DNA from: a virus | IMG/VR virus record: IMGVR_UViG_3300030380_004057 | Location: 12,965 to 76,964 of that record | Direction: 5' to 3' (one strand) | DNA length: 64,000 nucleotides | Shown here: one piece after another, positions 25,248-28,519 of the stretch | How positions within the stretch are numbered: position 1 is the stretch's first letter | Layout: the number at the start of each line of letters is the position of its first letter | The notes under the pieces: model-generated | What the model was told of the DNA's origin: nothing | What the model saw: only the letters and a program-made list of their open reading frames with translations | The model's database searches: none | Program-made: the position numbers and the translations under genes

Positions 25248-25475
25248 ATGGCTAAGTTAATTAGAAAAATAAGCATAGGAACTGACTATAAAAACGAAGC
25301 AATGCACTACTCTGTAGGTCAACAGGTCTACGGAGGACATTGCATATGTGATATATTATTTGACAACAAAGATAATTCATATAATATATTTATAAAAAAA
25401 GAAGACGAAGTTATACCGTGGAAGAAGTTTAATTCTAACATGGCTATATCAATTGAATACAATTTAGAGTATTAA
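25248..25475 (+). CDS. conserved hypothetical protein
   Basis: 75 aa; IRKISIG.DYK..AMHY. Confidence 0.7.
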   Translation: MAKLIRKISIGTDYKNEAMHYSVGQQVYGGHCICDILFDNKDNSYNIFIKKEDEVIPWKKFNSNMAISIEYNLEY

Positions 25476-26095
25476 TGCAAAGTTTATTTAATTTTATAGT
25501 ACAACCAAAAAATAAAAGATACGAAAACGAAGTTGATATTAATGGTAGCAAGCTTATTATTAATACAACTATGGACGATCATAAATACGTAAGTAGAATA
25601 GGTGTTATTAAATCAGTACCTAAAGTTGGTGATACAAATATTAAGGTTGGTGATGAAGTTATAGTACATCACAATGTATTTAGAAGATTTTATAATATGA
25701 AAGGCGAAGAAAAAAACAGCTCATCATATTTTAAAGAAGATTTATATTTTTGTTATTATGATCAAATATTTTTATACAAACAAGATAATGAGTGGAAAGC
25801 TCCTTTTGAGTTTTGTTTTGTAAAACCTATTGAAAATAAAAAACAATTTGTAACAGTTCAAAAAGAACGTCCTCGTGTTGGTATACTAAAATATGGTAAT
25901 AGTTCCTTAGATGCTCTTAAAGTGCACGAGGGAAGCCTTGTAGGGTTTAGCCCTAGCAGCGAGTATGAATTTATTATAGAAAATAACAGATTATACCGTA
26001 TGCGAACTAATGATATTACAATTAAATATGAATACAAAGGAGACGAAGTTGAATATAATCCAAGCTGGGCAAGTGGCTGTGGACGAACTTATTAA
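25475..26095 (+). CDS. GroES-like double-domain protein
   Basis: 206 aa; FIVQP...GVIKSVP...IKVGDEVIV and second FVKP...G.LKY...RM..NDI unit. Confidence 0.55.
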   Translation: MQSLFNFIVQPKNKRYENEVDINGSKLIINTTMDDHKYVSRIGVIKSVPKVGDTNIKVGDEVIVHHNVFRRFYNMKGEEKNSSSYFKEDLYFCYYDQIFLYKQDNEWKAPFEFCFVKPIENKKQFVTVQKERPRVGILKYGNSSLDALKVHEGSLVGFSPSSEYEFIIENNRLYRMRTNDITIKYEYKGDEVEYNPSWASGCGRTY

Positions 26096-26303
26096 AGTTG
26101 CTAAAGAACCTATTGTAGACTCAGAAGATGATATAAGTGCTGACAGATTAAAAAATGCTGCGGCTACAAAAAAGCTAGCAATATTTGATGCTTTTGAAAT
26201 ACTTAAACGTATACAAGAAGAAAAGGATATGCTAGAAGACAGGCCTAAAAAAGAAACAAAAGAAAAAACTTTTAAAGGTTTTGCTGAAAGGAGGTCTAAA
26301 TGA
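26010..26303 (+). CDS. terminase small subunit (putative; start probably 26028)
   Basis: Helical 90-97 aa ORF directly upstream of and coupled to TerL. Confidence 0.6.
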   Translation: MILQLNMNTKETKLNIIQAGQVAVDELIKVAKEPIVDSEDDISADRLKNAAATKKLAIFDAFEILKRIQEEKDMLEDRPKKETKEKTFKGFAERRSK

Positions 26304-28519
26304 AGTATGAACAATCTTTAATAAAAGTACTAAAAGACTATGTTAAACCTAAAGTTTTAGCTAGAAATAATAGGTATAAAAAATGGGAGTACGGTTACAA
26401 CGAAGATCACGACTTTGTAGTTATAAGTAAAACGGGCGAGATAGGTGAAGTATGTGAAATACAAAATTTAAAAATAGCTTTACCTAAAGCAAACAATGTT
26501 TATAAGTTTAAACAAAACAAATGGGCTAAGTTTGATTATCCTGACGAGTTAAAAAAAATTAAAACTGTTTATGATTTTAAGCAGTATCCACAAGATTTTA
26601 AAGAAAAATGGTATGATTACATCGATAATGAGTTTACCCGTAGGGAAGAAGGTTTTTGGTTTTATAACAAAGATATTCCTACTTACATTAGTGGCACTCA
26701 TTATATGTACTTGCAGTGGTCTAAGATTGACGTCGGGGCACCAAACTTCCGTGAGTCAAATAGATTATTCTTTATTTTCTGGGAAGCTTGTAAGGCAGAT
26801 TCACGATCCTTTGGGATGTGCTACCTTAAGAATAGGCGGTCCGGGTTTTCTTTCATGGCCTCAGGAGAGGTGGTTAACCTGGCAACCATATCAAGTGACT
26901 CTAGGTATGGTATATTATCCAAATCTGGACCTGATGCCAAATCCATGTTCACAGATAAGGTGGTACCCATATCAGTTAATTATCCCTTCTTTTTCAAACC
27001 GACCCAAGACGGAATGGACAGGCCCAAGACCGAGCTTGCCTACAGAGTACCAGCAACCAAATACACCCGTCGTAAACTTACCGCCCCCACCACCGACGAA
27101 ACCTTACAAGATCTACAGGGACTTGACACCACTATCGACTGGAAAAATACAGGTGACAACTCCTATGATGGGGAGAAACTCAAGCTCCTCGTCCATGATG
27201 AATCGGGGAAGTGGGAAAGGCCGAACAACATCCTCAACAACTGGAGGGTTACGAAAACCACATTAAGATTAGGTAGTAGAATAGTTGGTAAGTGCATGAT
27301 GGGCTCAACATCAAACGCATTAGATAAAGGTGGTGACAACTTTAAAAAGTTATACTATGATTCAGATGTTACAAAAAGAAACCGCAATGGACAGACTCGC
27401 TCAGGACTATATAGTTTGTTCATACCTATGGAATGGAACTACGAAGGATACATTGATTCTCATGGACTACCTGTATTCCAAGATCCAACAGAAAAGGTTT
27501 TTGGACCACATGGAGATGAAATTAAAAACGGAGTAATTGATTATTGGAATAACGAAGTAGATGGTTTAAAATCTGATCAAGATGCTTTAAATGAATTTTA
27601 TAGACAGTTTCCACGCACAGAGCAACATGCTTTTAGAGACGAAACAAAACAGAGTTTATTTAATTTAACAAAAATATACGAACAGGTAGATTATAACGAA
27701 GAAGTTAAAATGTCTGGGCTTATAACGCAAGGTAGCTTTCAATGGCGTAACGGTGTTAAAGATACTACTGTAGAGTTTATGCCAAATAATAACGGTAGGT
27801 TTAAAATAAGCTGGACACCTGATGCTAACATGCAAAACAGAATAATAGTTAAAAACGGTGTTAAGTTTCCTGGTAATGAACACGTTGGCGCTTTTGGTTG
27901 TGACAGTTATGATATATCAGGTACTGTTGACAGGTTAGGATCTAATGGGGCTTTACACGGTGTTACTAAGTTTAGTATGGAAAACGCACCTCCTAATAGA
28001 ATATTTTTAGAATATGTAGCAAGACCTCAAACCGCTGAAATATTTTTTGAAGATGTTCTTATGGCACTAGTATTTTACGGTATGCCAATATTGTGTGAAA
28101 ATAATAAACCAAGACTTTTATATTATTTAAAACGTCGAGGCTATAGAGGTTATTCAATGAATAGACCTGATAAAATTTGGAACAAATTATCTGTTACAGA
28201 AAAAGAAATAGGTGGTATACCTAATTCTAGCGAAGACATTAAACAAGCTCATGCTGCAGCTATAGAAAGCTATGTTGAAAACTATGTAGGAAGATTAAAT
28301 GAAAGTTATGGTGATATGTATTTTAATAGAACTTTAGAAGACTGGGCTAAGTTTGACATAAACAATAGAACTAAATTTGACGCGTCAATAAGTTCTGGTT
28401 TAGCCTTAATGGCTTGCAATAAAAACCTATATAAACCGATACAAGAAAGAAAAATAAAATCAATTAATCTTGGTATTAAAAAATATAATAACCAAGGAGT
28501 GAGATCTCAAATAATTTAA
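26300..28519 (+). CDS. terL: terminase large subunit
   Basis: Walker A KNRRSGFS, Walker B LLVHDESGKW, motif GSTSN, nuclease FGCDSYD; precedes portal. Confidence 0.92.
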   Translation: MKYEQSLIKVLKDYVKPKVLARNNRYKKWEYGYNEDHDFVVISKTGEIGEVCEIQNLKIALPKANNVYKFKQNKWAKFDYPDELKKIKTVYDFKQYPQDFKEKWYDYIDNEFTRREEGFWFYNKDIPTYISGTHYMYLQWSKIDVGAPNFRESNRLFFIFWEACKADSRSFGMCYLKNRRSGFSFMASGEVVNLATISSDSRYGILSKSGPDAKSMFTDKVVPISVNYPFFFKPTQDGMDRPKTELAYRVPATKYTRRKLTAPTTDETLQDLQGLDTTIDWKNTGDNSYDGEKLKLLVHDESGKWERPNNILNNWRVTKTTLRLGSRIVGKCMMGSTSNALDKGGDNFKKLYYDSDVTKRNRNGQTRSGLYSLFIPMEWNYEGYIDSHGLPVFQDPTEKVFGPHGDEIKNGVIDYWNNEVDGLKSDQDALNEFYRQFPRTEQHAFRDETKQSLFNLTKIYEQVDYNEEVKMSGLITQGSFQWRNGVKDTTVEFMPNNNGRFKISWTPDANMQNRIIVKNGVKFPGNEHVGAFGCDSYDISGTVDRLGSNGALHGVTKFSMENAPPNRIFLEYVARPQTAEIFFEDVLMALVFYGMPILCENNKPRLLYYLKRRGYRGYSMNRPDKIWNKLSVTEKEIGGIPNSSEDIKQAHAAAIESYVENYVGRLNESYGDMYFNRTLEDWAKFDINNRTKFDASISSGLALMACNKNLYKPIQERKIKSINLGIKKYNNQGVRSQII
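26571..27266 (+). CDS. putative overprinted (+1 frame) lipoprotein-like ORF inside terL
   Basis: 231 open codons, signal-like KIFLLTLVALIICTC, Pro-rich; local shift of terL to C/G-ending codons. Confidence 0.5.
   Translation: MILSSIHKILKKNGMITSIMSLPVGKKVFGFITKIFLLTLVALIICTCSGLRLTSGHQTSVSQIDYSLFSGKLVRQIHDPLGCATLRIGGPGFLSWPQERWLTWQPYQVTLGMVYYPNLDLMPNPCSQIRWYPYQLIIPSFSNRPKTEWTGPRPSLPTEYQQPNTPVVNLPPPPPTKPYKIYRDLTPLSTGKIQVTTPMMGRNSSSSSMMNRGSGKGRTTSSTTGGLRKPH

What the first reader, a model, noticed from the sequence alone, without database searches (positions are those of the whole stretch)
26571..27266. Hidden 231-codon lipoprotein-like gene overprinted on the terminase ATPase domain
Seen: +1 frame of terL is stop-free for 231 codons, while the ORF track shows no other fully nested same-strand ORF of 60 aa or more in any plus-strand gene outside terL. 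In this stretch terL switches to codons rare elsewhere in the window (CCC, ACC, GCC, CTC, GGG, CGG). From ATG 26628 the product reads MSLPVGKKVFGFITKIFLLTLVALIICTC-SG: basic, hydrophobic, then Cys, followed by W/Y/P-rich, PPPPP and S/G/T-rich segments. Established: lambda Rz1 is a Pro-rich outer-membrane lipoprotein embedded in +1 frame; no ordinary spanin pair is evident here. Inference: an overprinted envelope protein (o-spanin or exclusion factor) coupled to packaging gene expression.
Basis: partly seen in the sequence, partly recalled or inferred. Interest (0 to 1): 0.85.

Follow-up and report, generated by a model that had tools for sequence, protein, structure and literature searches.

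The report
Hidden envelope gene inside phage terminase
A second gene of about 217 codons, kept open by selection, lies out of frame inside the DNA-packaging (terminase) gene of a marine Flavobacteriia-type phage. It probably makes an exported, spanin-like lysis protein, because related phages have either this hidden gene or an ordinary lipoprotein gene in their lysis cassette, and never both.

Summary
The +1 frame of terL (26300-28519) is open for 231 codons (26571-27266), over a GC3-rich patch. This ORF and a second one at 27330-27536 are the only nested same-strand ORFs of 60 aa or more in any plus-strand gene.

The ORF is a real gene as far as sequence can show:
- About 59 of 79 homologous terL (75-89% aa identity) keep the frame open. 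Codon shuffles predict 3-9 stops.
- The GC3 rise ends where each length class of the ORF ends.
- Homologues without the ORF use default AT-rich codons and carry 7-17 stops.

The product has a signal-peptide-like leader ending in an invariant C-T-C-S-G. TerL does not force the T-C-S residues. About 180 basic, disordered residues follow.

New here: in relatives that carry the lysis cassette, 0 of 42 with an open ORF (and not the window's genome) have a stand-alone cassette lipoprotein, against 13 of 14 with a broken frame. This supports an o-spanin-like role. The canonical lipobox test fails, and translation and function are untested.

This scan has found the same hidden gene before in at least four related phage genomes. 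I found no published report.

The parts
26300..28519 (+). terL (terminase large subunit, 739 aa), the host gene. The overlap covers TerL residues 105-322, which include the Walker-A-like LKNRRSGFS and the Walker-B-like LLVHDE motifs.
   Evidence: ORF. (phrog_6681, E 9e-161). The motifs were read directly from the translation and their assignment is inference. No PDB sequence match.
26613..27266 (+). Nested +1-frame gene, 217 codons from the conserved ATG 26613 (212 from ATG 26628; the longest ATG ORF starts at 26571). Stop TAA at 27264-27266.
   Evidence: open in about 59 of 79 homologues. Every ORF-bearing sequence has an ATG at one or both of the two conserved positions. 145 clusters at 50% identity were found in 1.84 billion proteins.
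26613..26720 (+). Signal-peptide-like leader: a Lys-bearing n-region, an 11-residue hydrophobic core (IFLLTLVALII), then C32-T33-C34-S35-G36 (26706-26720).
   Evidence: T33, C34 and S35 are invariant although they need the non-default terL codons TAC, YTG and CAG. ORF-less homologues read C-I-Y-N-G. AlphaFold2 predicts a helix at residues 9-36, pLDDT 63-74. T is (near-)invariant at four-fold terL sites 381, 384, 393 and 399.
26721..27263 (+). Basic tail of about 180 residues (net charge about +12), rich in W/Y/P and then S/T/G, predicted disordered. It ends in the conserved motif TTSSTTGG (27225-27248).
   Evidence: pLDDT below 50 for residues 36-217. TerL NNILNNW is encoded AAC AAC ATC CTC AAC AAC TGG in diverged homologues. 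ORF-less homologues read ..IIF*II.. at this place.
26660..27266 (+). GC3-rich, C-skewed recoded stretch of terL (codons about 121-322), the footprint of the overlapping gene.
   Evidence: GC3 is 0.44-0.67 in the long class and falls to 0.25 after the ORF stop. It falls earlier in the shorter ORF classes. It is 0.13-0.28 in ORF-less homologues. GC12 is identical in all classes.
53568..53858 (+). 96-aa gene with an N-terminal TMD and an acidic coiled coil (i-spanin-like) in the lysis cassette 52017-54868. It is a candidate partner. There is no lipoprotein gene next to it in this genome.
   Evidence: 84% mean identity across relatives. (endolysin phrog_894 at 54407-54868). The i-spanin label rests on architecture and position only (searches found no family).

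Best explanation
The +1-frame ORF is a genuine overprinted gene. It is transcribed with terL on the late mRNA and translated by internal initiation at ATG 26613 or 26628. Bacteroidota hosts use no Shine-Dalgarno sequence, so an accessible AUG is enough. Its leader (basic n-region, 11-residue hydrophobic core, C-T-C-S-G) sends it through the inner membrane. C34 is probably the functional, possibly lipid-modified, cysteine: under the TerL constraint, residue -1 can only be Thr or Ile, and Thr, the smaller, is always chosen. The basic, aromatic/Pro-rich and then Ser/Thr/Gly-rich disordered tail lies in the periplasm. There it supplies the lipoprotein-type (o-spanin-like) component of the last, outer-membrane step of lysis, perhaps together with the conserved 96-aa i-spanin-like protein. 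Related phages obtain this function from a stand-alone cassette lipoprotein instead. The C-enrichment of terL third positions is the cost of this arrangement. Those positions are the second codon positions of the nested gene. T-to-C changes there turn an otherwise very hydrophobic, stop-ridden frame into an open, polar, soluble chain. Shown: the frame is kept open by selection, the recoding is bounded by the ORF, specific residues are conserved without being forced, and the ORF is mutually exclusive with cassette lipoproteins. Inferred: translation, export, lipidation and the lysis role.
For: (1): the +1 frame is open for 150-267 codons at the same place in about 59 of 79 terL homologues of 75-89% aa identity, while the +2 frame has 17-45 stops. 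(2): shuffles that keep TerL and regional codon usage expect 2.7-9.1 stops. None is observed in all 56 sequences tested (P(0) at most 0.008 each, mostly 0 of 500). (3): GC3 is 0.67 (long class), 0.26 (mid class) and 0.23 (no ORF) in terL codons 301-320, so the recoding stops where each class's ORF stops. GC12 is equal in all classes. (4): T33, C34, S35 and the TTSSTT motif are conserved without being forced by TerL. ORF-less homologues carry the default codons. (5): TerL C-terminal identities are star-like (72-80% between any of the sequences compared), so the frame has been kept through deep divergence. (6): a leader helix plus a disordered tail, which is typical of overprinted proteins. (7): six ORF-bearing cassettes that I inspected hold the i-spanin-like gene but no lipobox protein. 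(8): ORF-less G001 has a 145-aa protein with a canonical lipobox (VSSC, ASC or AGC). It is also basic and Y/W/P-rich with an S/T/N/G tail, and its gene overlaps the start of the i-spanin-like gene. (9): all 18 lipoprotein-bearing records that hold terL have 7-15 stops in the nested frame. Among records with the 96-aa gene and an assessable terL, 0 of 42 with an open ORF (nor the window's genome) have the 145-aa lipoprotein, against 10 of 14 with a broken frame. Three more of the 14 have a 70-aa u-spanin-like lipoprotein, which is absent from 19 open-ORF records and from the window's genome. (10): G016 has a truncated nested ORF that still keeps CTCSG, together with the lipoprotein. This suggests a switch separate from the old ORF-less lineages. 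(11) PMC6847099: Bacteroidetes initiate without SD sequences, and A at -3 helps; ATG 26628 has A at -3.
Against: There is no direct evidence of translation, export or lipidation. The leader fails the consensus lipobox (LI[IT]C and [IT]CTC; PMC6139136 gives [LVI][ASTVI][GAS]C). The gene lies 27 kb from the lysis cassette, not in or beside the i-spanin-like gene. The mature part (about 183 aa) is far longer than Rz1 (40 aa). There is no sequence similarity to the stand-alone lipoprotein. The 96-aa protein is almost the same in phages of both kinds, which argues against a sequence-specific partnership with two unrelated proteins. One record, G030, has a truncated ORF (87 codons) and no lipoprotein. 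The mutual exclusivity was not corrected for phylogeny, because no tree could be built, so the number of independent events may be small. Strictly invariant terL third positions are not more frequent inside the ORF than outside (13 of 207, against about 9-13%). The tail is therefore under compositional rather than sequence-specific constraint. The spanin labels of the cassette genes rest on architecture alone.
Confidence: 0.5

Rival explanations
1. The ORF is a real, translated, overprinted membrane or exported protein, but with a function other than spanin-like lysis. Examples are a holin or antiholin-like lysis timer, a superinfection-exclusion or receptor-masking factor, or a cationic outer-membrane disruptor acting alone.
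For: All the evidence for a selected gene applies. The leader is not a consensus lipobox. The tail is strongly cationic and disordered, like the phage cationic peptide reported for outer-membrane disruption (bioRxiv 10.1101/515445, abstract only). Its size and single N-terminal hydrophobic segment recall T4 holin T (from memory). The stand-alone lipoproteins that it alternates with are themselves uncharacterised.
Against: The alternative genes sit in the lysis cassette and overlap the i-spanin-like gene, which points to lysis rather than exclusion. Late co-expression with terL fits exclusion factors poorly. A holin-like protein (119 aa, basic C-terminus) is already present in the cassette.
Confidence: 0.3
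2. The frame is not translated. The C-rich third positions serve a function at the nucleic-acid level (mRNA structure or stability, or a protein or packaging recognition region), and the open frame is a by-product.
For: Composition alone lowers the number of off-frame stops. Most third positions in the tail are not sequence-conserved. A separate run of invariant third positions nearby (27404-27479) shows that terL does carry other synonymous constraints.
Against: Even with the regional codon usage kept, 3-9 stops are expected and none is seen in 56 sequences. The +2 frame keeps 17-45 stops. The GC3 boundary follows the stop codon of each length class. Thr/Cys/Ser and the hydrophobic core are conserved by choices that make sense only as amino acids. 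The frame decays exactly in those genomes that hold a cassette lipoprotein.
Confidence: 0.07
3. The +1 frame is reached by programmed ribosomal frameshifting from terL, giving a fusion of the TerL N-terminus with the alternative C-terminus, rather than by independent initiation.
For: Database proteins exist that switch between the TerL frame and the +1 frame (P0027, P0049, P0079, P0081, P0082, P0083).
Against: Their junctions all differ, and one switches twice, as expected from indels in contigs rather than from a fixed slippery site. In most homologues a +1-frame stop lies only 20-60 nt upstream of the conserved ATG. A signal-peptide-like segment makes sense only at a free N-terminus.
Confidence: 0.04
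4. The GC-rich patch is a segment recombined in from a phage with higher G+C, and the ORF is accidental.
For: The composition changes abruptly inside one gene.
Against: No homologue has a high-GC terL outside the patch; the rest of the gene is 0.28-0.35 in all 80 sequences. Only third positions differ. The patch is as diverged among carriers as the rest of the gene. Its end tracks the ORF's stop.
Confidence: 0.02

Closest known systems
Lambda Rz1 (o-spanin) embedded in the +1 frame of Rz; T7 18.7 in 18.5 (PMC6139136, PMC5295617)
   Same: It lies wholly nested in the +1 frame of another late gene. It has an N-terminal export signal followed by Cys. Its periplasmic part is Pro-rich and unstructured (the window even has a PPPPP run). 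An i-spanin-like gene is present in the genome. In relatives it alternates with canonical lipoproteins of the lysis cassette.
   Different: The host gene is the terminase ATPase domain, 27 kb from the lysis cassette, not the i-spanin gene. The lipobox is non-consensus, with Thr at -1. The mature length is about 183 aa against 40 aa. PPPPP is not conserved. No binding, lipidation or lysis role has been shown.
phiX174 lysis gene E nested in the +1 frame of the scaffolding gene D
   Same: It is a de novo-looking gene overprinted in the +1 frame of an essential morphogenesis gene. It has an N-terminal hydrophobic segment followed by a basic, poorly structured tail.
   Different: E is 91 aa and belongs to a 5-kb ssDNA phage without an endolysin, where it acts alone by blocking MraY (from memory). 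This is a 77-kb dsDNA phage with a full endolysin cassette.
Stand-alone 145-aa lipoprotein of ORF-less relatives (L085:4105-4542; family alignment A4)
   Same: It is exported and Cys-bearing. It is basic, with an aromatic/Pro-rich middle and an S/T/N/G-rich tail that ends in a basic motif. The two genes are mutually exclusive in distribution.
   Different: It has a canonical lipobox and a well-conserved 50-residue domain. It is encoded by its own gene, which overlaps the i-spanin-like gene. There is no detectable sequence similarity.
Long overlapping (overprinted) genes of viruses in general (PMC8227390, PMC6195259)
   Same: The novel frame evolves faster than the old one, is enriched in disorder-promoting residues, and distorts the codon usage of the host gene.
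   Different: A fully nested overlap of 650 nt over a conserved ATPase core is unusually long for a tailed dsDNA phage. The recoding (GC3 from 0.2 to 0.67) is unusually visible because the genome is AT-rich.

Membership tests
Overprinted (overlapping) protein-coding gene | The alternative-frame ORF is longer than chance allows, given the host protein and codon usage. | tested here: met
   0 stops observed against 2.7-9.1 expected with regional codon usage (6-14 with whole-gene usage). P(0) is at most 0.008 in each of 56 sequences.
Overprinted (overlapping) protein-coding gene | The ORF is conserved across homologues whose synonymous sites have diverged. | tested here: met
   open in about 59 of 79 TerL-anchored homologues and in 42 of 56 cassette-anchored records, at 72-89% TerL identity.
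Overprinted (overlapping) protein-coding gene | The host gene's synonymous sites are distorted or constrained only within the overlap. | tested here: met
   the GC3 rise is bounded by each class's ORF end; position-specific, non-default codons are conserved. A formal Synplot2 or OLGenie analysis was not run. Plain invariance of third positions is not raised.
Overprinted (overlapping) protein-coding gene | Direct evidence of translation. | not testable with these tools
   Only contigs of public runs were available. A seawater RNA library holds near-identical contigs, but this shows neither the reading frame nor translation.
Bacterial lipoprotein (SPase II substrate) | Lipobox [LVI][ASTVI][GAS]C at the end of a short hydrophobic core (PMC6139136). 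| tested here: not met
   the sequence reads L-I-[I/T]-C32 and [I/T]-C-T-C34, so residue -1 is Thr or Ile, never Gly, Ala or Ser. TerL's Tyr codon allows only Thr or Ile at -1 of C34, and Thr is chosen in all sequences; the reading of this as selection for a small residue is inference.
o-spanin of a two-component spanin | The gene is embedded in, overlaps or adjoins the i-spanin gene in the lysis cassette. | tested here: not met
   it is embedded in terL, 27 kb upstream of the cassette.
o-spanin of a two-component spanin | An i-spanin partner (type II inner-membrane protein with a periplasmic coiled coil) is encoded by the phage. | tested here: inconclusive
   the 96-aa protein with a TMD and an acidic coiled coil is conserved in all relatives, but no family match names it.
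o-spanin of a two-component spanin | A small, Pro-rich, largely unstructured periplasmic domain. | tested here: inconclusive
   the tail is about 12% Pro and predicted disordered, but its 183-aa mature length is several times that of typical o-spanins.
o-spanin of a two-component spanin | Required for outer-membrane disruption at lysis. | not testable with these tools
   There is comparative support only: the ORF is mutually exclusive with cassette lipoproteins.
Single-gene lysis protein (phiX174 E type) | It is the sole lysis effector in a phage that lacks an endolysin. | tested here: not met
   an endolysin (phrog_894) lies at 54407-54868, within a multi-gene cassette.

The most novel reading that the evidence does not exclude
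A protein born de novo by overprinting on the terminase ATPase domain has taken over the outer-membrane (o-spanin-type) step of lysis. It replaces, and in some lineages is replaced by, unrelated canonical lipoprotein genes of the lysis cassette. Its odd Thr(-1) 'lipobox' would be the best one reachable under the constraint of the host gene's conserved HYMYLQW motif. This would be a documented case of a de novo gene displacing an established one, and of an essential lysis function encoded inside the packaging motor gene.
Probability: 0.4. Interest if true: 0.85.

Novelty: new variant of a known kind. Interest (0 to 1): 0.78.

Why it matters
Standard annotation forbids long nested genes, so this protein is missing from every phage annotation. 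More than 140 sequence clusters of it nevertheless exist in metagenomes.

It is an unusually clean natural experiment in overprinting. Lineages with the gene, lineages without it, and lineages with shorter versions sit side by side. The cost to an essential, conserved ATPase gene can be read directly as recoding.

If the lysis role is right, three things follow:
- It would explain why these Flavobacteriia phages seem to lack an o-spanin.
- It would show that lysis genes need not lie in the lysis cassette.
- It would give a testable case of functional replacement between a de novo gene and an ordinary one.

It also warns that GC-rich patches inside AT-rich phage genes can be footprints of hidden genes rather than signs of recombination.

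Tried and rejected
Tools that failed or were closed:
- The script machine was lost. No tree, no phylogeny-aware correlation test and no Synplot2/OLGenie-type statistic could be computed. Third-position invariance was counted by hand.

Searches on the nested protein that found nothing useful:
- Pfam, PHROGs and NCBIfam gave no family.
- tblastn against GenBank phages gave no match.
- The closest cultured or deposited relatives (MW202828 and the Flavobacterium elemo phages) have no such ORF.
- ESM Atlas gave only weak look-alikes (BamE-containing hypothetical lipoproteins of Bacteroidota, score 0.85, 134 shared features), below the level of evidence.
- A PDB sequence search with TerL gave no hit.
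- AlphaFold2 gave no fold to search with.

Other attempts:
- Complex prediction of the nested protein's mature part with the periplasmic part of the 96-aa protein gave no verdict (score 0.00). This is neither for nor against binding.
- Protein comparison and hhalign of the nested protein against the 145-aa lipoprotein showed no homology.
- Read laying returned thousands of short contigs from many related marine phages, too mixed for a polymorphism test. One RNA-library contig about 95% identical differs from the window mostly at terL third positions (11 of 13 listed differences), which shows the tail is not sequence-frozen.
- A Bacteroidetes-type -7 promoter motif (TAAGTTTG at 26527-26534) is not conserved in homologues and was dropped.
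- Literature searches for a terL-nested gene found none. A search for data on Thr at lipobox position -1 found nothing usable.
Full report
**Observation.** terL occupies 26300-28519 (739 aa; phrog_6681, E 9e-161). Its +1 frame holds an ORF at 26571-27266 (231 aa). Across about 45 kb of plus-strand genes, the only fully nested same-strand ORFs of 60 aa or more are this one and a 68-codon ORF at 27330-27536, both in terL. G+C rises from about 0.30 to 0.42-0.49 over 26600-27300, with a negative GC skew. Rare C/G-ending codons are visible in frame. The overlap covers TerL residues 105-322. I read the Walker-A-like LKNRRSGFS and Walker-B-like LLVHDE motifs in this stretch. No PDB relative was found to anchor that reading.

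**Context.** The window is part of a complete 76,964-nt viral record. The nearest deposited relatives by DNA are podophages of Flavobacterium, Tenacibaculum and Maribacter. Near-identical sequence occurs in marine metagenomes of several studies.

**Conservation of the frame.**
- IMG/VR gave 80 loci with TerL at 75-89% identity.
- In a codon alignment, 55 homologues plus the window keep the +1 frame open for 150-267 codons at the same place.
- I first scored four further homologues as lacking the ORF because I had set their terL start wrongly. I checked one of them, L052, directly: it carries a 151-codon version.
- About 20 homologues have 7-17 stops in this frame.
- The +2 frame has 17-45 stops in every sequence.
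- Shuffling synonymous codons within the region, which keeps TerL and the regional codon usage, predicts 2.7-9.1 stops where none is seen. At most 4 of 500 shuffles reach zero in any of the 56 sequences, and in most none does.
- TerL C-terminal halves of ORF-bearing and ORF-less phages are all 72-80% identical to the ORF-less L013, with no visible grouping. Openness has therefore been held through deep divergence.

**Footprint in terL.** GC3 by 20-codon bins separates the classes cleanly, while GC12 is the same in all.

| Class | GC3 inside the ORF | Where GC3 falls |
|---|---|---|
| Long ORFs (end near terL nt 955-976) | 0.44-0.67 in codons 121-320 | 0.25 in codons 321-340 |
| ORFs ending at nt 868 | 0.53 in codons 281-300 | 0.26 in codons 301-320 |
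| ORFs ending near nt 800 | elevated upstream | 0.23 by codons 261-280 |
| ORF-less homologues | 0.13-0.28 throughout | no rise |

No homologue has a GC-rich terL outside the patch. This removes the recombined-segment explanation.

**What is selected.**
- terL third positions are the second codon positions of the nested gene, so every synonymous terL change alters the nested protein.
- The tail is not sequence-frozen. Strictly invariant third positions are no commoner inside the ORF than outside (13 of 207). A 95%-identical RNA-library contig differs mostly at third positions.
- Some residues are conserved even though TerL does not force them. Over TerL HYMYLQW the nested frame reads [I/T][I/T]-C-T-C-S-G. 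T33, C34 and S35 need TAC, YTG and CAG, and they are invariant or nearly so in 40-56 diverged sequences.
- Five ORF-less homologues carry the default TAT, TTA and CAA codons and read C-I-Y-N-G.
- Four four-fold sites in the hydrophobic core keep T.
- TerL NNILNNW is encoded AAC AAC ATC CTC AAC AAC TGG, which gives TTSSTTGG. ORF-less homologues read IIF*II at this place.
- With default A/T codons this frame is very hydrophobic and full of stops. The T-to-C shift converts Leu, Ile, Val and Phe into Ser, Pro, Thr and Ala. That matters only if the frame is translated, and it explains the excess of C (inference).

**The product.**
- Every carrier has an ATG at 26613 and/or 26628.
- The leader has a Lys-bearing n-region, an 11-residue hydrophobic core and then C-T-C-S-G. 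This is the architecture of a signal peptide.
- It fails the consensus lipobox [LVI][ASTVI][GAS]C (PMC6139136). TerL's Tyr codon allows only Thr or Ile before C34, and Thr is always used.
- AlphaFold2 with a 40-sequence alignment predicts only a leader helix (residues 9-36, pLDDT 63-74). The rest is below pLDDT 50.
- The tail is strongly basic (about +12).
- No family, structure or GenBank phage match exists.
- A profile search finds 145 clusters at 50% identity. All look like the same terL-embedded frame, and some are chimeric with the TerL frame through contig indels at varying junctions. That variation argues against a fixed frameshift site.

**Lysis cassette and mutual exclusivity.** This is the main addition to earlier notes on this gene.
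- The window's cassette (52017-54868) holds a holin-like YfiM-family protein, a 396-aa OMP-like protein, a 96-aa TMD plus acidic coiled-coil protein (i-spanin-like), a thioredoxin-fold protein and an endolysin. It has no lipobox protein.
- The complete ORF-less relative G001 has two extra genes just before the 96-aa gene. One is a 145-aa protein with a canonical lipobox, a Y/W/P-rich middle and a basic S/T/N/G tail. Its gene overlaps the start of the 96-aa gene (family alignment).
- All 18 IMG/VR records that hold this lipoprotein together with terL have 7-15 stops in the nested frame.
- I then started from 74 records that hold the 96-aa gene. In 56 of them the terL region could be assessed.
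- 42 of the 56 have the nested frame open, and none has the lipoprotein.
- 14 of the 56 have it broken. Ten of these have the lipoprotein family. Three (G061-G063) instead have a 70-aa protein with a lipoprotein signal and a C-terminal hydrophobic segment (u-spanin-like architecture). That protein is found in no other record tested, including 19 with an open frame and the window's genome.
- Six open-frame cassettes that I read directly contain no lipobox protein.
- The one exception is G030. Its nested frame is cut after 87 codons and it has no lipoprotein. Its near twin G016 has the same truncation plus the lipoprotein.
- Identities of the 96-aa gene interleave the two kinds of phage, so the pattern is probably not a single deep split. 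Without a tree I cannot count independent events.

**Comparison with known systems.** The nearest analogy is lambda Rz1 in Rz: nested in the +1 frame, with an export signal plus Cys and a Pro-rich unstructured domain (PMC6139136). As a family member it fails two defining tests, the lipobox and the position relative to the i-spanin gene, and it is several times too long. phiX174 E in D is similar in origin and architecture, but this phage has an endolysin. I therefore file it as a new variant of the embedded-gene theme. It works plausibly like an o-spanin, but it is not a demonstrated member.

**Limits.**
- The complex prediction gave no verdict.
- Nothing here shows translation.
- This scan's earlier agents reached the same basic conclusion on at least four related genomes. 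That repeats the reading and does not independently confirm it.
- I found no published description.

**Verdict.** My odds that this is a real overprinted gene are about 0.85-0.9. My odds for the exported, spanin-like lysis role are about 0.5.

Noticed in passing
window 27330-27536 (constraint core 27404-27479): A second +1-frame ORF in terL (68 codons, GTG start). A run of invariant terL third positions lies inside it (nt 1113, 1119, 1122, 1128, 1143, 1149, 1155, 1158, 1173, 1179 in 10 diverged sequences). GC3 is 0.43-0.47 here in all classes, including homologues that lack the first ORF. The frame is open for 58-82 codons in those too, and the ORF is conserved in L052. This is a separate synonymous constraint, either a second hidden gene or an RNA/DNA element.
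   Followed up: partly
window 52017-54868: Lysis cassette: a holin-like YfiM-family protein (119 aa, very basic C-terminus), a 396-aa OMP-like protein with a signal peptide, a 96-aa TMD plus acidic coiled-coil protein, a thioredoxin-fold protein (PF00085) and an M15-type endolysin. No lipobox protein is present.
   Followed up: partly
L085:4105-4542 (record of L029); family L091-L115: A stand-alone 145-aa lipoprotein family (lipobox VSSC, ASC or AGC; conserved NTIKVLAVTxEGDTIQLDVNSLRPRVYQNIYHTYPYYHNYW; low-complexity basic tail). It is found only in relatives whose terL-nested frame is broken. Its signal peptide (MKIWKIVLYVV..) resembles that of the neighbouring OMP-like gene in some genomes (MKLWKIVLFVV.., L187:321), which hints at an origin by partial duplication.
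   Followed up: partly
L159:2195-2407 (G062; also G061, G063): A 70-aa protein with a lipoprotein signal (LFLTSSC) and a C-terminal hydrophobic segment (u-spanin-like architecture), lying between the thioredoxin-like gene and the endolysin. It is present only in three ORF-less records that lack the 145-aa lipoprotein.
   Followed up: partly
L196 (G030:34199-34840) and L197 (G016:11186-11827): Two near-identical terL in which the nested frame keeps its first 87 codons (leader and CTCSG intact) and then has default codons and stops. G016 carries the cassette lipoprotein and G030 does not. This may be a short functional form or an old truncation.
   Followed up: partly
proteins P0027, P0049, P0079, P0081, P0082, P0083: Database gene calls that switch between the TerL frame and the +1 frame at different points, one of them twice. 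They are probably indels in metagenome contigs. The open +1 frame lets gene callers run on. G036 and G042 show the same effect (open frames of 641 and 599 aa).
   Followed up: no
L088 and L090 (G007, G008): More distant carriers of a short (about 151-codon) nested ORF have a different lysis cassette: a 52-aa holin-like protein, an amidase endolysin, and a 149-173-aa TMD plus coiled-coil protein. They also lack any lipoprotein gene.
   Followed up: no
window 25475-26303: A GroES-like gene (phrog_13932) and a 97-aa gene that overlaps it by 86 nt lie directly upstream of terL. The synteny is conserved in L052 and MW202828. The 97-aa protein has no family and may be the small terminase.
   Followed up: no
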